Source: an uncultured Nitrososphaerota archaeon
GTDB taxonomy: Archaea > Thermoproteota > Nitrososphaeria > Nitrososphaerales > Gagatemarchaeaceae
Assembly (NCBI GenBank): GCA_963703285.1
Contig: OY969807.1
Coordinates: 1,856,001 to 1,920,000 of the forward strand
Direction of reading: 5' to 3'
Length of the DNA stretch: 64,000 bases
Positions 24,983 through 31,051 of this stretch are shown piece by piece. A program made the translations under genes and the position numbers. Numbering within the stretch: the stretch's first letter is position 1; every line of letters starts with the position of its first letter. The notes under the pieces were generated by a model. The model was not told the DNA's origin. It did not search any database and saw only the letters and a program-made list of their open reading frames with translations.

Positions 24983-25921
24983 ATGTCTCGAAACCCGAAC
25001 TTCTCGCGTCTGATGAAACTGGAGAAAGCTCTAGACAAATGTCCCAGATGCGCGCACAGCCCCATGATAATCGACTCGTCTGGGGGAGAGCTATTCTGCA
25101 GCAACTGCGGCTTCGTGCTCAAGGAGAAGATGGAGGAGGCGGGTCCCGAGTGGCGGTCCTTCTCCAACGAGGAGAAAGACGAGAAGAGCAGGGTCGGGCT
25201 CCCGACCTCGGTGGCCATATCAGACATGGGCCTTGCGACAGTCATCGGCGGTGAGAACAGGGACGCTTCGGGGAGGACGCTCTCGGGCTCGATGCGGTCG
25301 ACCGTAGAGAGGCTGAGGACGTGGGATCGGCGCAGCCAGGCACACGAGTCTGCCGACAGAAACCTCAGACAGGCGTTCAGCGAACTTCACAGATACGCCG
25401 ACAAGCTCACCGTCAACGAGGCGGTGGTCGAGAAGGCGGCCTACATTTACAGGAAGGCCTTCGAGCGCGGGCTGGTGAGGGGAAGGTCGATAACGGCAAT
25501 CACCGTCGCGTCTCTCTACGCGGCGTGCAGGGACATGGAGATACCTCGGACCCTGAAGGACATGGCGGCTGTCAGCAACATAAAGAAGAAGGACATCGCA
25601 CGATCCTACAGGCTTCTCTTCAGGGAGCTCGACATGCACATGCCTGTCGTTGACCCCGCGCGGTGCATCTCCAAGATTGCATCCAGGGCGGGCATGAAGG
25701 AGAAGACCCAGAGGAGGGCTCTCGAGATACTCACCATGGCAGGGCCGATGCGCGTCTCCGCAGGCAAGGACCCGATGGGTTTCGCCGCATCAGCGCTCTA
25801 CGTCGCATGCACACTGGAGAACGACGGCAAGACTCAGCGCGATATCGCCGAGGCCGCGGGCGTCACCGAGGTCACGATCAGGAACAGGTACAAGGGCCTG
25901 AGGGCCGCCCTGGGCTTCTAG
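24983..25921 (+). CDS. tfb: Transcription initiation factor IIB (TFB), paralogue 2
   Basis: CPRC...CSNCG, GPEWRSF, cyclin repeats, GVTEVTIRNRYK. Confidence 0.95.
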   Translation: MSRNPNFSRLMKLEKALDKCPRCAHSPMIIDSSGGELFCSNCGFVLKEKMEEAGPEWRSFSNEEKDEKSRVGLPTSVAISDMGLATVIGGENRDASGRTLSGSMRSTVERLRTWDRRSQAHESADRNLRQAFSELHRYADKLTVNEAVVEKAAYIYRKAFERGLVRGRSITAITVASLYAACRDMEIPRTLKDMAAVSNIKKKDIARSYRLLFRELDMHMPVVDPARCISKIASRAGMKEKTQRRALEILTMAGPMRVSAGKDPMGFAASALYVACTLENDGKTQRDIAEAAGVTEVTIRNRYKGLRAALGF

Positions 25922-26360
25922 GGTCATCCATCCGCCGCGCACCTCGAACAGCACTCGCTAAGGCTCGATCCCCGCTAATCGGCAGTATACGGCGCCAAGT
26001 CCGGGAATCGGCTAGAGCGCAACATATATTAAATGAATAATTCATTCACGTAATCTGTAGGGCCAAAGATATGCCACGCAAGAAGATGGACCAAGAGCTG
26101 AGGGACGAGAAGTCCGAGCTGATCCTCGACGCTGCTAGGAAGGTCTTCGCGAGGAAGGGCAGCGCGGCGACCATGGCCGAGGTGGCTGAGGAGGCGGGGG
26201 TCAGCCCTGAGGTAAGAGTGCGTTGCCACGCTAGAATTGCTTCAGGCAGGAAACACGCACCCTCCCTCCCAAACCCGGCGTGATACTTTCGCATCACCGG
26301 GCTTTCACCCCTACGTCCTCCGTCCTCTTCTTGTGCATTGGATGGATGGGTTTCGGCTGC

Positions 26361-28112
26361 CTAGTTTCTAGGTAGCCTACTGTGGCATGTCGCGCACAAT
26401 GTCTGAAGATTTTCGACCCGGTGCACGACCTGCGGGTTGAAGACCATTCCTTTGGGGACAGGTTCCCTATGGTGCGCCTGAAGTCTTTCCCGACTGCCGC
26501 ACAGAGTACACCTCCATCCATCCCTCTCAAACGCCAGAAAGCGGTTGGAGAGATAGGTTTCATCGTACTCGGGCGCAATCGGGTGGATGTTGGGCACATC
26601 AACGATTGGGTCGTCGTTTTCCTCTGATACGCTGGTTGCGGTGTGGTTCTGGCGGATGTATGGATTGCTGATTGACCTGTATTTCCAAACAAGTCTGTGA
26701 TTCAGTGAGGTGTGCATGCTCTTGTTCGAGTTCATCCTAAAGAGTTCGGTCTTGACCGGCCCTCTTTGGATGACTACACTACCGTTTCTGAGCACGACGG
26801 AGAGGCATTTCTGGACGCTTATCTGGTATTTCCTACAATACCATTGATAGAACAGGCGCTGTGCCAGAAAGTCTCCCGTAGCGAATTGCTGATGTGAGTT
26901 GACGGTTCTGTAGTAGTTTGCCCATCCTCTCAAGACTCTGTTCATGGCTGCAATCTTCATCTGAGGGTCGTCGCTCTTCGCGCTCGGCCCTAGCATGGCT
27001 TGCAGTTTGTACTTGAGTCGGAGTAGGTTCTTTTGTGTTGGTCGTATCCTGACGCACATGCCGTGGTCTAGCCTTACTCGCTGGATGCGAAATCCGAGGA
27101 AATCGAATCCAGCTTCCAGATGCACGACACGCGTCTTTTCTGCGGACAGGCTCAGCCTCAGCTTCTCCGTGAAGAAGCTGCGTATGTTGTCCATGATTGC
27201 GGTGGCCTGCTCCTGAGTGCCTTTCACGCTCAGGATGAAGTCGTCCGCATACCTGAACAGCACGCAGCTTGCCTGCCCTTTCTCACGTCGCAGTCTTCTC
27301 TGCTTGTAGGTGAGTTTGCCCCAGCTCTCGTACCAATGCTGGTCAAACTCGTTGAGGTAGATGTTGGCTAGGAGTGGCGAAAGGACTCCGCCTTGCGGGG
27401 TTCCTTTCTTGGTCTGAGTTCGGATGCCCTTCTCGATGACGGGTGCCTTGAGGAATCGGCGGATCAGCCACAGGACTTTTGGGTCGGCTATCCTTCGTTC
27501 TATAGCTTCCATCAGTATCCAGTGGTCGATGTTGTCGAAGCACCCTTCGATGTCTCCCTCGATGACCCATTCGTACAGACGCTTGCTGTCCCCGTACTGA
27601 TACATGGGCAATACGCACTCCAGCGTGCTTCGCTCAGGTCGGAAGCCGTTGGAATTGGGCAGGAAGTCGGCCTCAAAGATTGGTTCGAGAACCATCTTCA
27701 AGACCATCTGAACTGTCCTATCCTTCAGCGTTGGAATGCCTATTGGTCGTTTCCCTCCGCTGGCCTTCGGAATGTACTTCCTCAGGACAGGCGAGGGGTG
27801 GTAGGTCTTGTGTTTCAGTTCTGTCCGCAGTTCCTCGACAAATCTGGCCCTAGCAGACGGTTCGTGCAGGTCTGCCCCGCACACTCCGTCTACGCCTGAG
27901 GTCTTCGCGCCAGTGTTGTCTAGGACTGCTTCCAGAGCCGATTTGAGCCACTCTCTTCTCCAGAGTAGCGGGTGTAGGTTGTGGAACCGTTTGTTCGGTT
28001 GTCTTGTTGCTGCTATGGCGAGCCCACTCTGGATATGGAGAATGACTCTGCCTTCGTCCTTGCGGACTACTGGATTGGGTGATTGCTCACCCAACTGATT
28101 GTTTGAGTCCAT
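26361..28112 (-). CDS. ltrA: Group II intron-encoded RT/maturase with C-terminal HNH endonuclease
   Basis: RPIGIPTLKDR, EGDIEGCFDNIDH, GTPQGGVLSPLLANIYL, RYADD, FDFLGF, LRGWANYY, RDGWRCTLCG..HH..NLQTLCATCH; SD GGAGGTGA before ATG 28112. Confidence 0.95.
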   Translation of the reverse strand: MDSNNQLGEQSPNPVVRKDEGRVILHIQSGLAIAATRQPNKRFHNLHPLLWRREWLKSALEAVLDNTGAKTSGVDGVCGADLHEPSARARFVEELRTELKHKTYHPSPVLRKYIPKASGGKRPIGIPTLKDRTVQMVLKMVLEPIFEADFLPNSNGFRPERSTLECVLPMYQYGDSKRLYEWVIEGDIEGCFDNIDHWILMEAIERRIADPKVLWLIRRFLKAPVIEKGIRTQTKKGTPQGGVLSPLLANIYLNEFDQHWYESWGKLTYKQRRLRREKGQASCVLFRYADDFILSVKGTQEQATAIMDNIRSFFTEKLRLSLSAEKTRVVHLEAGFDFLGFRIQRVRLDHGMCVRIRPTQKNLLRLKYKLQAMLGPSAKSDDPQMKIAAMNRVLRGWANYYRTVNSHQQFATGDFLAQRLFYQWYCRKYQISVQKCLSVVLRNGSVVIQRGPVKTELFRMNSNKSMHTSLNHRLVWKYRSISNPYIRQNHTATSVSEENDDPIVDVPNIHPIAPEYDETYLSNRFLAFERDGWRCTLCGSRERLQAHHREPVPKGMVFNPQVVHRVENLQTLCATCHSRLPRN

Positions 28113-28757
28113 TCTCTCACCTCCTGTTGTGTTTCGTGGACTGAATCCATCCTTCTGCACAGTTCAGACTTCGGATTTCAGGCTAGAGTCCTTCCCCACA
28201 GGTCGGTAATTGGCCGACGTTCAGGGTACTATGACTCCTCGGAGCCAACCCGGTCAAGTCGGACGCAGCCGTCCTATCCTCTCGCCCTTTATCGACGGGA
28301 GTCAGACCGGGTTGGGTCTCACGTTCTGTAAGGAGCACTTCTGCGGACGGATTTAGGCACCCACCAGTTACCGAGAGAGCTCCAGCTCGCTGGCCGGTTC
28401 TCGCCTGCCTGAAGGAGGGGATTTGCCACACTTCGTCCTTGAGTAAAGTGTGGTAGCTCTCTATACCATGCGCGCTTCGTCCTATCCTAGCGTCTTCGCA
28501 TGGCGCATGCGCTACCTGTTGTGGATTCCTTAACGTTGCCGTGTCCGTCCTAAGGTCGCCGTCTCGGGAACCTAGGCTGTTCCCTTATCGGCTGTCTATG
28601 TCTGGGGCTAGCCCCATGCTGGACTCTGCTCAGAGCCCAACAAGCCAGACGACTTTCACCTTCGGGAGTCCTGACCTTGCGGTCGAGGACGCCCAGCCTT
28701 ACCTACTGTAGTGTGGGATGGAGATGACTGAGCATGCTGGTGATGAGGTGTTCCAGC

Positions 28758-29324
28758 TTATGGTACTGCGCTCGCGCAGTACGAGGTAGACCCATACGGA
28801 ACGGATGTTTCATTGGAGCCAGTGACGGTTACGATGAGGGTATTGTTGGAGCTGTCGAGTTTCTGTGCTGTGGCGCAAAGAGTCAGGCCGCCGGTAACTA
28901 CTGATGTCATGGTAACGTTCTTGGCGAAGAAACCGCTACCAGTGTAGCTCCCACTGACATTCGTAGGATTGGTCTGGCCGAGGTTGTTGTATCCCAGATA
29001 CGTCAACTTCCACGGACCAGTATAGTTTACGGAAACGATGAAAGTGTAGTTGTAGGTCGCAAGACAATCACCGCCCGACTGATACCCCGAGCACGAGCTA
29101 GAGATCGTCGTCGAGGTCGTTTGCGACTGGGTGGTAAGAGTTTGACTGGTATTGACCGGCAGAGTAGTGGTCGATGATAAGTTGGAAGAAGTCGATGGAC
29201 TGGAAGAATGGGAAGTATTCGACTGTGACGTGAGTACAATGACTCCTGTCGCTCCGACCAGGATGACCACGACTGAAACAATGGCAATGATTGCTGTTCC
29301 AATTCCTCTTCTGGAAGTCTTCAT
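28758..29324 (-). CDS. Intron passenger: Ser/Thr-rich surface protein with class III (prepilin-like) signal peptide
   Basis: MKTSRRG-IGTAIIAIVSVVVILVGATGVIVL, S/T-rich linker, Cys-containing beta domain; own TATA-like element (TATTAA, about 29361-29356). Confidence 0.75.
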   Translation of the reverse strand: MKTSRRGIGTAIIAIVSVVVILVGATGVIVLTSQSNTSHSSSPSTSSNLSSTTTLPVNTSQTLTTQSQTTSTTISSSCSGYQSGGDCLATYNYTFIVSVNYTGPWKLTYLGYNNLGQTNPTNVSGSYTGSGFFAKNVTMTSVVTGGLTLCATAQKLDSSNNTLIVTVTGSNETSVPYGSTSYCASAVP

Positions 29325-30001
29325 GTCGTGTCTGTGTTTGATGTGGTCGTGCGTCATTAATACCTTTGTCCGAATGGCGCTACTTTGCATGGAATAGTTG
29401 TGGTAGGTAGGGGAATATAGTCCTACGGTTTAGGACGGCTGTTCTGATGTTTGACTACAGTTCTTCGGGCATTGCTCCTTACAGCAGAGAGGTAGCAGGC
29501 TACCTCTTTTCGTGACGCGCAGGGGCTCGCTTACAGGTACTTCTCGAGCAAGGATGAGATTGTCGCAACCCTGGTCAGGAGGATGATCCAATCGAGAGGC
29601 AAGCTAACCTCGATGGTCCGGGAGATGCCGGGAACCCCAGGAGCGCGTCTCTTCAAGGTCGTATCGACGATGGTCGACAACAGGCGGGAGCGGCCTGAGT
29701 ACCACCAGATGATGTACCAGGGGATGGCCGACGAGAACTTGTCGCAGGAGCTGCGCGATGCCATAAGCGAGCAGAGGAGAGCCGTCAACGAGATAGTGCG
29801 GGGTCTCATCGTCGAGGGTCAGGCGACGGGTGAGGTCGCGGGGGACGACCCGGATCAGCTGGTCACGGCTGTTATGGCGTGTCTCGACGGCCTCTCGAGG
29901 AGGGTGTTGACGATGCCTCACGGCGAGTCCGGGGAGAAGTTGCCGCCCCCCGGGATAATCCTGAGGATGCTCAGGCCGGACGTGGGGAGGGTGAGCCTGG
30001 G

Positions 30002-31051
30002 TTGAAGCTGAAGGGCGTCTGTTACGATGTCGGAGCTGTTATGGGCTTCAATTGGCGTCCAGTCTTCGACCCGAAGGTTGTACGCCGGGAGCTGGAGGTC
30101 ATCAAGAACGACCTGCATTGCAACGCGGTGAGCATCAGCGCCCTGGATGTTGGTCGGATTGTGACCGCCGCAACAGCCGCGCTCGAGGAGGGGCTCGAGG
30201 TCTGGCTCTCGCCTCTGCTGTGGGACAAGAGCGAGGATGAGACCGTCGCGTACTTGGCCAAGGCGGCCGGGCGGCTGGAGGCTCTCCGCAAGCGGTGGCC
30301 CGACAAGGTGGTGCTGAGCGTCGCCTCAGAGTCCACGCTGTTCATGCAGGGGATACTCGAGGGGAAGAACATCATCCAGCGGCTCGGAAACCCAAAGTTC
30401 AGAGCGAGAATCATGGCCGGCGAGCACAACGGGCCGCTCAACGCGTTCCTCGGCAAGGCCGTGGCTGCAGTCAGGAAGGAGTTCAAGGGCAAGCTGACCT
30501 ACCACTCCCTCATCTGGGAGAAGGTCGACTGGAGCCTCTTCGACTACGTCGGCGTGGACCACTACCGGGCCAAGGACATCGAAGACAAGTACGTCGAGAT
30601 GCTGAAGCCGCTCTTCGACAGCGGCAAGCCCGTGGTGGTCACGGAGTTCGGGTATGGGACCTACCAGAGCGACGGGAAGCTCGCCCAGGTCCTGCTGGGA
30701 GGAGGGGACGTCGACTTCAAGTCGCAGTTCTTCCACGCCCTACCGGTCGTGGGAAGGTTCGTCCGTCCCAAGGTGCGGGTCATCCACCCGCGCGACGAGG
30801 CCTGGCAGGCGCGCAAGGTCGTCGAGACCCTGGAGATTCTCGACGACGCGGGCGTGGACGGAGCCTTCGTGTCGCAGTTCGTGTCCCAGATCAATCCCTT
30901 CGATGAGGACCCGAGGTACGACCTGGACTTGGCAGGAAGCACCCTCGTCAAGAGCTTCGAAGGGGGAAGGAGGGGCACCACCTATCCAGATATGCCGTGG
31001 GAGCCGAAGGAGTCCTTCAGGGCCGTGGCCGACTATTACGCCACCCACTAG
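30002..31051 (+). CDS. TIM-barrel glycoside-hydrolase-like protein
   Basis: KGVCYDVG, DLHCNAV, KPVVVTEFG; TTGA overlap with the TetR stop. Confidence 0.6.
   Translation: MKLKGVCYDVGAVMGFNWRPVFDPKVVRRELEVIKNDLHCNAVSISALDVGRIVTAATAALEEGLEVWLSPLLWDKSEDETVAYLAKAAGRLEALRKRWPDKVVLSVASESTLFMQGILEGKNIIQRLGNPKFRARIMAGEHNGPLNAFLGKAVAAVRKEFKGKLTYHSLIWEKVDWSLFDYVGVDHYRAKDIEDKYVEMLKPLFDSGKPVVVTEFGYGTYQSDGKLAQVLLGGGDVDFKSQFFHALPVVGRFVRPKVRVIHPRDEAWQARKVVETLEILDDAGVDGAFVSQFVSQINPFDEDPRYDLDLAGSTLVKSFEGGRRGTTYPDMPWEPKESFRAVADYYATH

What the first reader, a model, noticed from the sequence alone, without database searches (positions are those of the whole stretch)
26207..29520. Group II intron with GC...AG ends and a compensatory gamma-gamma' swap
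Exon reconstitution and the DVI bulged A (26213, 7 nt from the end) give a 3' end of ACCTCAG rather than the canonical AY. J2/3 between DII and DIII reads CGA (C at 28241) instead of RGA, so the gamma-gamma' pair is C-G rather than R-Y. This covariation argues against a simple error. The 5' end is GCGCG instead of GUGYG, and an extra hairpin (29488-29507) precedes the DI stem. An archaeal group II intron ending in AG resembles spliceosomal 3' ends. Archaeal group II introns are described mostly from methanogens.
Basis: partly seen in the sequence, partly recalled or inferred. Interest (0 to 1): 0.8.

Follow-up and report, generated by a model that had tools for sequence, protein, structure and literature searches.

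The report
Archaeal group II intron ending AG
A mobile self-splicing intron in a soil archaeon has unusual ends (GCGCG…AG instead of GUGYG…AY), and the internal base that pairs with its last base has changed to match, so this is a working variant rather than an error.

Summary
Window 29520→26207 (minus strand, 3314 nt) is a complete group II intron, with DV/DVI, an RT-maturase-HNH protein and covariation-supported DI–DIII. It lies antisense inside a TetR gene.

**Ends.** They are 5'-GCGCG…CCUCAG-3'. A second, 100% identical copy sits in the sense strand of an ArdC-like gene, a third decayed copy has the same ends, and removing 3314 nt restores the TetR frame.

**γ–γ′.** In 21 of 21 aligned introns the first J2/3 base pairs Watson-Crick with the last intron base:
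- 8 are C–G: this lineage plus L013.
- 13 are G–C: the sister lineage and the outgroups.
- On the IEP tree this needs at least two coordinated changes.

EBS1, EBS2 and a δ-like base track each copy's own exons, which confirms both junctions. GCGCG and the 5' hairpin are features of the whole clade.

The penultimate A and G1 are kept, so the likeness to spliceosomal AG ends is superficial. The TetR copy is an ectopic, gene-disrupting insertion.

**Limits.** Splicing itself is not shown, because no RNA run was listed. I found no report of a natural C–G γ–γ′ pair in the papers I searched.

**Verdict.** New variant of a known kind. First-reader notes on the second copy in this genome recorded the same ends.

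The parts
26207..29520 (-). Complete group II intron, 3314 nt (q1 = 29520, q3314 = 26207)
   Evidence: Identical 3314-nt copy elsewhere in the genome with unrelated flanks. Excision restores the TetR frame.
29516..29520 (-). 5' terminus GCGCG (consensus is GUGYG)
   Evidence: Every clade member where a 5' end was found starts GCGCGUCAC(G/A), preceded by varying bases.
29511..29515 (-). I(i) 5' strand UCACG; pairs with CGUGA at 28319-28323
Evidence: Both strands are near-invariant in the clade. No covariation is available, so the pairing is inferred.
29488..29507 (-).
   Evidence: RNAfold -11.2 kcal/mol. Relatives have hairpins of different sequence at the same place, 25-38 nt as a rule and 131 nt in L013.
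29473..29484 (-). I(ii) 5' strand CUGUAAGGAGCA; pairs with UGCUCCUUACAG at 28326-28337
   Evidence: 12 complementary bases, read directly. In L011 and L008 changed bases on both strands keep pairing, read by eye.
28705..29461 (-). Domain I hairpin (stem ACUGUAG 29461-29455 with CUACAGU 28711-28705) whose loop holds a ~740-nt insertion
   Evidence: L008 has a plain hairpin with a 4-nt loop at this place.
28758..29390 (-). Cargo ORF, 210 aa: TM helix, S/T-rich linker, Cys-containing C-terminal domain
   Evidence: ORF, with no Pfam family above its cut-off. Homologs at 38-39% identity in the intron relics L007 and L094. The family is widespread in the host's archaeal family.
28505..28511 (-). EBS2 (CGCAUGC)
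   Evidence: Pairs 6/6 by script, 7/7 when extended by eye, with -14..-8 of the ArdC-like site. At the TetR site it pairs 4 WC + 1 GU of 6 by script (6/7 by eye). The same region tracks the exons in L009, L114, L115 and L123 and, by eye, in the tier-2 introns.
28435..28441 (-). Delta-like C (28441) followed by EBS1 AAGGAC (28440-28435) in a hairpin loop
   Evidence: The EBS1 column was found by exon complementarity in 7 introns and confirmed in L115, L123, L114 and L013. In this genome EBS1 pairs only 4/6 at both sites. The base 5' of EBS1 tracks the +1 exon base.
28242..28318 (-). Domain II
   Evidence: RNAalifold columns 523-601 of A2, with many compensatory pairs. Coordinates.
28239..28241 (-). 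J2/3 = CGA; gamma = C at 28241
   Evidence: A2 columns 602-604. CGA in all tier-1 copies examined, GCA in tier 2, GGA in outgroups.
28185..28238 (-). Domain III
   Evidence: RNAalifold columns 605-664 with compensatory pairs.
26361..28112 (-). Intron-encoded protein in domain IV (583 aa from the ATG at 28112; the open frame runs from 28160, 599 aa)
   Evidence: Pfam RVT_1 1.2e-39, GIIM 2.4e-10, HNH 4.5e-5. M17 is invariant in 22 relatives and GGAGGUG lies upstream of it.
26271..26304 (-). Domain V (34 nt, AGC triad, 2-nt bulge)
   Evidence: Rfam RF00029 alignment.
26207..26270 (-). J5/6 and domain VI with bulged branch A at 26213; penultimate A at 26208; terminal G (gamma') at 26207
   Evidence: Rfam alignment. 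The terminal AG is conserved in 8 of 8 C-gamma introns.
26071..26206 (+). TetR-family gene, N-terminal part, interrupted by the intron
   Evidence: Pfam TetR_N 3.3e-8.
29521..30005 (+). TetR-family gene, C-terminal part
   Evidence: Pfam TetR_C_24 3.5e-10 and others. The frame continues from 26206 once the 3314 nt are removed.

Best explanation
This is a recently mobile group II intron of a lineage confined, as far as sampled, to Gagatemarchaeaceae-type Nitrososphaerota. It should work like any retromobile group II intron. The RT-maturase-HNH protein binds the RNA. The bulged A of domain VI (26213) attacks the 5' junction before G29520. The freed 5' exon then attacks the junction after G26207. 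[quoted passage not shown] The excised lariat reverse-splices into DNA chosen by EBS2 and EBS1. What differs from the textbook is the polarity of gamma-gamma' (C-G in place of purine-pyrimidine), which gives a terminal AG, and C at position 2 of the 5' end. The ArdC-like gene at the second copy is the cognate target. The TetR copy in the window is an ectopic antisense insertion that splits and probably inactivates the regulator. Shown: the anatomy, the exact boundaries, and the covariation. Inferred: splicing chemistry, mobility mechanism and activity.
For: Boundaries:
- Two 100% identical 3314-nt copies with unrelated flanks, plus a third copy with the same ends.
- The TetR frame is restored by excision.
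- In relatives, removing GCGCG...CAG or ...UAC opens frames of more than 200 aa across the junction in 7 of 9 introns tested. One lies inside a TFB zinc ribbon, where the result is the same 15-residue spacing as the uninterrupted TFB in this window.
- Three intron-less homologs fix L013's junction at ...CCAG.

Ribozyme:
- RF00029 at 57.1 bits.
- 63 of 150 consensus pairs show compensatory changes.
- The IEP has RVT_1, GIIM and HNH domains.

Gamma-gamma':
- 21 of 21 aligned introns pair (8 C-G, 13 G-C). Neighbouring columns pair in 8, 9, 0 and 13 of 21.
- On the IEP tree L013 (C-G) branches below tier 2 (G-C) and tier 1 (C-G), with G-C outgroups, so at least two coordinated changes are needed.

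Exon recognition tracks each copy's own flanks:
- EBS1 pairs 5-6 of 6 in 9 introns (L013 by eye).
- EBS2 pairs 5-6 of 6 in own@ArdC, L009, L114, L115 and L123.
- The delta-like base gives 8 WC + 2 GU + 1 mismatch in 11 introns (plus by-eye readings).

The reading of the J2/3 order as gamma-G-A follows P.li.LSUI2 A420 and A422 (passages of PMC6224600).
Against: - No splicing product was seen. No RNA run is listed for this sequence.
- In this genome EBS1 pairs only 4 of 6 with both insertion sites, which is weak for a supposedly active element.
- The window copy is antisense to its host gene and has no shown promoter upstream of its 5' junction.
- The covariation rests on about two evolutionary events, not 21 independent ones.
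- The I(i) pairing is invariant, so it is untested by covariation.
- L009's IEP is broken (stops inside the match), so not every lineage member is active.
- The literature check was limited to an open-access library.
Confidence: 0.85

Rival explanations
1. The terminal G and the J2/3 C are not partners. Their association reflects shared ancestry, and the 3' site is set by other contacts (the delta-like pair, domain VI geometry).
For: Only about two evolutionary events underlie the 21-of-21 association. The neighbouring J2/3 base also differs between lineages (G in tier 1, C in tier 2), so J2/3 is changing for reasons that may be unrelated.
Against: Both states always occur together, in both directions on the tree. 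Neighbouring columns do not track the terminus. The gamma-gamma' pair is established for group II introns in general (passages of PMC4424553, PMC4238363 and PMC6224600).
Confidence: 0.08
2. The copies are inactive relics moved by recombination or as part of a larger element, so the unit's ends are not splice sites.
For: Weak EBS1 pairing at both sites in this genome (4/6). The window copy is antisense. The genome also holds a decayed third copy.
Against: - The identity stops at the ribozyme ends, apart from one shared G, in unrelated flanks.
- The IEP frame is intact.
- EBS2 pairs 6/6 by script (7/7 by eye) with the ArdC-like site.
- Diverged relatives sit in sense orientation in TFB, transposase-like and other frames that are restored exactly by excision.
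Confidence: 0.04
3. The boundaries are shifted by one base (CGCGU...CAGG). The sequence of this genome allows it, because a G follows the unit at all three sites.
For: The same G flanks the unit at all three sites in this genome. Contigs from one run start at 26206.
Against: In relatives the base after CAG is C, A or G, while the leading G of GCGCG is always present after varying bases. The delta-like base pairs with the base directly after CAG.
Confidence: 0.02

Closest known systems
Retromobile bacterial group II introns with RT-X-En proteins (e.g. Ll.LtrB / LtrA, T.el4h)
   Same: Domain V and VI, bulged branch A, DI-DIII architecture, an IEP in DIV with RT, maturase and HNH domains, and EBS1/EBS2 target pairing. 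The best solved relatives of the IEP are the T.el4h RT (6me0, 5.6e-56) and LtrA (5g2x, 2.9e-52).
   Different: The ends are GCGCG...AG rather than GUGYG...AY. Gamma is a pyrimidine and gamma' a purine. The host is an archaeon. There is an extra ORF in a domain I loop. The IEP is at most about 40% identical to any annotated plasmid-borne IEP.
RmInt1 of Sinorhizobium meliloti (class D)
   Same: A mobile intron whose 3' end departs from AY. Its paper shows that gamma-gamma' variants which keep Watson-Crick pairing are the better tolerated ones (passages of PMC4238363).
   Different: RmInt1 ends CC: the penultimate base is changed and gamma' is still a pyrimidine paired with a purine. Here the penultimate A is kept and the pair itself is inverted. 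RmInt1's IEP also lacks the En domain.
Archaeal group II introns of Methanosarcina (CL, D and E lineages)
   Same: Archaeal hosts and several copies per genome. The review describes the archaeal introns as IIB and of lineages CL, D and E (passages of PMC4424553).
   Different: A different phylum (Nitrososphaerota). This lineage sits in protein-coding genes (TFB, ArdC-like, transposase-like), whereas the Methanosarcina introns are nested in other introns. Recognition of the +1 exon base looks like the IIA delta-delta' type rather than IIB EBS3.
CL1 (IIB1) introns with a 5' insertion near the intron start (Michel et al. 2007, known to me only through its citation in PMC4028801)
   Same: Extra sequence right after the 5' end. 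Here it is a hairpin of 25-38 nt as a rule and 131 nt in L013.
   Different: Membership of CL1 was not tested, and the original paper could not be read.
Class B introns with a 3' extension ('domain VII', B.c.I4)
   Same: The relative L013 splices, by exon reconstitution, 48 nt downstream of a normal-looking domain VI. Class B introns splice about 50-70 nt downstream (passages of PMC4424553).
   Different: This applies to L013 only. The window's intron has no extension. L013's extension is a second domain VI-like hairpin without a bulged A.
Spliceosomal GC-AG introns
   Same: The first two and last two letters.
   Different: No mechanistic likeness is shown. The terminal G here appears to be read by a Watson-Crick pair with J2/3. 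The review I read says no such pair has been reported for spliceosomal introns (PMC4424553).

Membership tests
Group II intron (ribozyme) | Domain V: 34-nt hairpin with AGC triad and 2-nt bulge | tested here: met
   Rfam RF00029 at 57.1 bits against a gathering score of 40, full model 1-77.
Group II intron (ribozyme) | Domain VI with a bulged A 7-8 nt from the 3' end | tested here: met
   A at 26213, 7 nt from the end, in the Rfam alignment.
Group II intron (ribozyme) | DI-DIII secondary structure supported by covariation | tested here: met
   RNAalifold on 7 introns: 150 pairs, 63 of them with compensatory changes.
Group II intron (ribozyme) | 5' consensus GUGYG | tested here: not met
   GCGCG in the window and in every clade member whose 5' end was found. 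G1, G3, Y4 and G5 are kept; only U2 has become C.
Group II intron (ribozyme) | 3' consensus AY | tested here: not met
   AG in 8 of 8 introns of the C-gamma group. 17 of 19 outgroup ends read AC, 1 AU and 1 GC; the GC was not followed up.
Group II intron (ribozyme) | Gamma-gamma' Watson-Crick pair between J2/3 and the last base | tested here: met
   21 of 21, with inverted polarity (C-G) in this lineage.
Group II intron (ribozyme) | EBS1-IBS1 and EBS2-IBS2 pairing with the 5' exon | tested here: met
   Both regions track each copy's own exon. In this genome EBS2 pairs 6/6 by script (7/7 by eye) at the ArdC-like site, but EBS1 pairs only 4/6 at both sites.
Group II intron (ribozyme) | Self-splicing with lariat formation | not testable with these tools
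   No RNA run is listed.
Mobile group II intron (retroelement) | IEP in domain IV with RT, X/maturase and En domains | tested here: met
   RVT_1 1.2e-39, GIIM 2.4e-10, HNH 4.5e-5, with the YADD motif present.
IIB structural class | EBS3 in the coordination loop pairs with the first 3' exon base | tested here: not met
   A scan of all DI-DIII alignment columns found only the column next to EBS1 tracking the +1 base, at 6 or more of 7. Only 7 introns were used, so this is weak.
IIA structural class / ML lineage | Delta, directly 5' of EBS1, pairs with the first 3' exon base | tested here: met
   8 WC + 2 GU + 1 mismatch in 11 introns, using four pair types (for 7 introns; L115, L123, L114 and L013 read by eye).
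IIA structural class / ML lineage | IEP groups with ML reference proteins | not tested
   No class-labelled reference set was available. LtrA and the T.el4h RT score alike.
Class B 'domain VII' introns | 3' extension after domain VI with downstream splicing | tested here: not met
   The window's intron ends at the foot of domain VI. The feature is present only in the relative L013.

The most novel reading that the evidence does not exclude
This is an undescribed archaeal group II intron lineage, possibly a class of its own. It combines an En-containing IEP, IIA-type delta-delta' exon recognition, GCGCG...AG termini with an inverted gamma-gamma' pair, and sense insertions in TFB genes that would need splicing. 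It has also repeatedly picked up host-type small membrane-protein genes in loops of domain I and domain IV, so it would act as a vehicle for host genes as well as a selfish element.
Probability: 0.3. Interest if true: 0.7.

Novelty: new variant of a known kind. Interest (0 to 1): 0.5.

Why it matters
The reviews I read treat GUGYG…AY, with a purine at γ, as close to universal for mobile group II introns. This is a whole lineage, apparently still active, in which the last base is a purine and its J2/3 partner has switched to match.

- It is a natural counterpart to the classic compensatory-mutation experiments.
- It shows that a terminal AG is compatible with group II architecture.
- It gives a ready test case for how strictly the second splicing step reads γ–γ′.
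- It warns that boundary-finding pipelines built on AY profiles will mis-call such introns.
- It adds a characterised ribozyme, not just an RT hit, to the thin record of group II introns in TACK archaea.

It does not bridge group II and spliceosomal introns, because the way the terminal G is read remains the group II way.

Tried and rejected
- **Expression.** No RNA holder is listed for the sequence, so splicing could not be examined.
- **Empty site.** I laid four soil-metagenome DNA runs from one study on window 25700-30200. No contig joins 26206 to 29521. Contigs stop at 29520 and start at 26206, and loose ends at 29520 read into the other copy's flank. That fits a repeat boundary and proves nothing more.
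- **Class-level genome sample.** Only this genome matched, 1 of 401. The family-level search matched 12 of 97, this genome included.
- **Metagenome scan.** The patterns were too general: 5 of the 80 loci kept were close relatives.
- **Class assignment.**
  - Solved-structure hits are ambiguous.
  - The permissive Rfam scan gave only a sub-threshold group-II-D1D4-1 match at J2/3-DIII, E 2.3.
  - The best annotated plasmid IEP is 39.8% identical, from a cyanobacterium.
  - The class remains open.
- **Alternative 3' site.** An AY site at ...CUUAC|CUCAG is rejected, because CUCAG travels with the unit into every site.
- **L013.** I first read it as a nested intron or as ending UC. Three intron-less host homologs rejected that.
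- **Literature.**
  - One search returned 101 papers; I saw the listing of 20. One search returned 0 papers and one search returned 5. None reports a natural C-G gamma-gamma' pair.
  -, and passages of PMC8632793 and bioRxiv 2024.12.10.627823, show that group II RTs are known in TACK archaea, but only from protein surveys.
  - Jacquier & Michel 1990, Michel et al. 1989 and 2007, and Simon et al. 2008 were not readable.
  - Supplements are closed. Figure S1 of PMC4028801, which gives class-specific boundary consensus sequences, may bear on whether any class departs from AY.
- **Rows left out.**
  - Tree: L009 (broken IEP), L018 and L019 (near-identical to L016) and most distant loci.
  - Table: L007 (no J2/3), L119 and L121 (no 3' end in the locus), L018 and L019, and the outgroups L020-L023, L026, L027, L029, L032 and L034.

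Full report
**What is there.** On the minus strand, window 29520→26207 is a 3314-nt unit that starts GCGCGUCACG and ends CUCUUACCUCAG.
- Rfam finds one family in the whole window: Intron_gpII at 26306-26207(-), 57.1 bits against a gathering score of 40. It aligns a 34-nt domain V and a domain VI whose bulged A lies at 26213, 7 nt from the end.
- Upstream lies a 599-aa open frame, 26361-28160(-). It matches RVT_1 (1.2e-39), GIIM (2.4e-10) and HNH (4.5e-5).
- The likely start is the ATG at 28112. That methionine is invariant in 22 relatives and follows GGAGGUG.

**Host gene and orientation.** The flanks encode a TetR-family regulator on the plus strand. The N-terminal part is 26071-26206 (TetR_N 3.3e-8) and the C-terminal part is 29521-30005 (TetR_C families). 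Removing exactly 3314 nt joins the two in frame. The intron is therefore antisense to the gene it splits, and it cannot be spliced out of the TetR transcript.

**Copies in the same genome.** The genome is one contig of 2.25 Mb. A search with the unit gave six matches: the window's own copy, a second copy that is 100% identical over all 3314 nt, and four pieces of a third copy.
- The flanks of the two full copies are unrelated. Identity begins at the G of GCGCG and ends one base after CAG, at a shared G.
- The second copy lies in the sense strand near the 3' end of a gene with an ArdC N-terminal domain (5e-5) and an HExxH motif.
- The third copy starts GCGCGUCAC, ends CCUCAG, and sits at the homologous place of a decayed paralog. 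It has lost the IEP and most of domains I-IV.

**Relatives.**
- The IEP has about 30 protein clusters at 71-92% identity, a second tier at 54-64%, and then a drop to about 40%.
- Named records place the close ones in Nitrososphaerota, including a Candidatus Gagatemarchaeum MAG.
- I obtained DNA for tier-1 introns L008, L009, L113, L114, L115 and L123 and the fragments L119 and L121. I also obtained tier-2 introns L010, L011, L012 and L014, plus L013 and more distant loci.
- A class-wide sample found the IEP only in this genome (1 of 401). A family-level search found it in 12 of 97 genomes, this one included.

**Structure.** RNAalifold on seven introns gives 150 pairs, 63 of them with compensatory changes. 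It defines domain II, a 3-nt J2/3 and domain III.

The 5' part runs as follows in the clade members whose I(ii) motif the script located correctly (it mis-hit in L012 and missed L014):
- GCGCG.
- UCACG, which can pair with an invariant CGUGA directly before domain II.
- AAA.
- A hairpin whose sequence differs from copy to copy but stays paired.
- A 12-bp I(ii) stem.

It lies between I(i) and I(ii). A later domain I hairpin has a ~740-nt insertion in its loop that holds a 210-aa ORF. L008 has a 4-nt loop at the same place.

**The ends and γ–γ′.** I aligned 21 introns from just upstream of J2/3 to their last base.

| Group | Introns | J2/3 | 3' end |
|---|---|---|---|
| Tier 1 | 7 | CGA | AG |
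| L013 | 1 | CGU | AG |
| Tier 2 | 4 | GCA | AC |
| Outgroups | 9 | GGA | AC |

- The first J2/3 base pairs with the last intron base in 21 of 21 introns (13 G-C, 8 C-G).
- The closing base of domain II, the two other J2/3 bases and the first base of domain III pair with it in 8, 9, 0 and 13 of 21.
- The base after CAG is G, C or A in different tier-1 copies, so it belongs to the exon.
- Reading J2/3 as γ-G-A follows the P.li.LSUI2 numbering, γ A420 and A422 (passages of PMC6224600).

**L013.** Its domain VI ends ...CUCUUC and is followed by a 48-nt second domain VI-like hairpin, without a bulged A, that ends ...CUCUCCAG. Both candidate junctions keep the host frame. Three intron-less homologs of the host protein, 218 aa and 82-84% identical, read straight from the upstream exon into the sequence after CCAG. 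So the 48 nt are intronic and the intron ends in AG.

**How many events.** On an IQ-TREE tree of 22 IEPs the clade has 100/100 support.
- L013 branches first (96/96).
- Tier 2 (83/79) and tier 1 (100/100) follow.
- The nearest outgroups are GGA/AC.
- Either C-G arose at the base of the clade and tier 2 reverted, or it arose twice. Both histories need two coordinated double changes.
- This is good evidence for a real pair, but it is two events, not 21.

**Independent support for both junctions.**
- A hairpin loop (A2 columns ~351-356) is complementary to the last six exon bases. It pairs 6/6 in L011, L012 and L014, and 5/6 in L008 and L010. In L009 it pairs 6/6 in a register shifted by one, three of the pairs being G·U. 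It pairs 5/6 in L115 and 5 WC + 1 GU in L123. By eye it pairs 5 WC + 1 GU in L114 and 6/6 in L013.
- The stretch after CCACAACRG is complementary to -14..-8. By script it pairs 6/6 for this intron at the ArdC-like site (7/7 by eye), 6/6 in L115 and L123, 5 WC + 1 GU in L009 and 5/6 in L114.
- The base 5' of EBS1 pairs with the first 3' exon base in 8 introns by Watson-Crick and in 2 by G·U, with 1 mismatch, out of 11 (plus by-eye readings). No other DI-DIII column does so. By the review's definition this is the IIA δ–δ′ arrangement, not IIB EBS3 (PMC4424553).
- Conceptual excision opens frames of more than 200 aa across the junction in 7 of 9 relatives. L114 and L012 were not convincing.
- In genome G447, L115 and L123 interrupt one TFB gene in sense. 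Excising L115 leaves two Cys pairs 15 residues apart, the same spacing as in the uninterrupted TFB at 24983-25921 of this window.

**Weak points.**
- This intron's own EBS1 (AAGGAC) pairs only 4/6 with both of its sites. The TetR site pairs with EBS2 at 4 WC + 1 GU of 6 by script, or 6/7 by eye.
- I read the ArdC-like gene as the cognate home and the TetR site as ectopic.
- No RNA run is listed, and no contig shows an empty site. Splicing at these ends is inferred from the precise, repeated transposition of the same unit and from the sense insertions in conserved genes.

**Compared with what is known.**
- Reviews give 5'-GUGYG…AY-3' for the vast majority, name ML, CL and B as the lineages with an endonuclease domain, and list only IIB introns (CL, D, E) for archaea (passages of PMC4424553).
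- The RmInt1 paper describes γ as a purine, calls A-U and G-C the natural pairs, and treats its own CC end as exceptional (passages of PMC4238363).
- Degenerate organellar introns can lack consensus boundaries (PMC8063479).
- Surveys note group II RTs in TACK archaea without describing the RNAs.
- I found no report of a natural C-G γ–γ′ pair. Key older papers and all supplements were out of reach.

**Verdict.** The observation and the core interpretation stand. This is a member of the group II family by its defining architecture. It fails two consensus features, U2 and a terminal pyrimidine. The second failure is compensated at its pairing partner.
- It is a new variant of a known kind.
- The likeness to spliceosomal AG is one of letters only.
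- First-reader notes on the second copy in this genome recorded the same ends and the cargo loop, and my tests agree with them.

Noticed in passing
window 28758-29390 (-): The intron carries a 210-aa ORF (TM helix, S/T-rich linker, Cys-containing domain) in the loop of a domain I hairpin. Homologs at 38-39% identity sit in the intron relics L007 and L094, and L009 has a 214-aa ORF of the same build (26% identity). A profile of the four ORFs matches 40 of the 60 other genomes sampled from the host's archaeal family, though many of those hits are weak and cover only the TM/S-T part.
   Followed up: partly
L113 2362-2985 (+); L115 ~1050-1500: Other tier-1 introns carry extra genes at a different place, between the IEP stop and domain V. 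L113 has a 207-aa TM + S/T-rich ORF on the intron strand. L115 has an insertion with a TM-rich ORF on the opposite strand. The relic L007 also has a small antisense membrane ORF (L007 ~1118-1330).
   Followed up: partly
L115 and L123 (one genome, G447 contig 8, ~3.7 kb apart): One TFB (TFIIB-like) gene is interrupted in the sense strand by two tier-1 group II introns, one in the zinc ribbon and one in the cyclin-fold region. Excising both restores open frames. A transcription factor gene that depends on group II splicing would be unusual for a prokaryote.
   Followed up: partly
L013 5695-5742: This intron has a 48-nt second domain VI-like hairpin, without a bulged A, between domain VI and the true 3' junction. 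It resembles the 'domain VII' extensions of class B introns. Three intron-less host homologs fix the junction.
   Followed up: yes
L010, L011, L012, L014 (J2/3): The sister lineage has GCA in J2/3. The middle base, G in the window's lineage and in all outgroups examined, is C there, while domain V keeps a normal AGC triad.
   Followed up: no
L001 688-1500 and 4815-4856 (genome C1 ~2.039-2.043 Mb): The host of the second copy is an ArdC-like gene (ArdcN domain plus HExxH), typical of conjugative or integrated elements. The intron's home is probably itself a mobile element. The third copy (L007) sits in a decayed paralog of the same gene.
   Followed up: partly
L009 (G409 contig 46, 49631-50560): The middle of this relative's IEP matches with 5 TGA and 1 TAG inside, so this copy's protein is broken although its ribozyme ends are intact. 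It also lies antisense in a 332-aa host frame.
   Followed up: no
L023 (3' end by the Rfam coordinate): One distant outgroup intron appears to end ...CCUGC, with a penultimate G, instead of AY. Its boundary was not verified.
   Followed up: no
window 24983-25921 (+): An intact TFB gene lies about 150 nt upstream of the start of the split TetR gene. It served here as the uninterrupted comparison for zinc-ribbon spacing.
   Followed up: no
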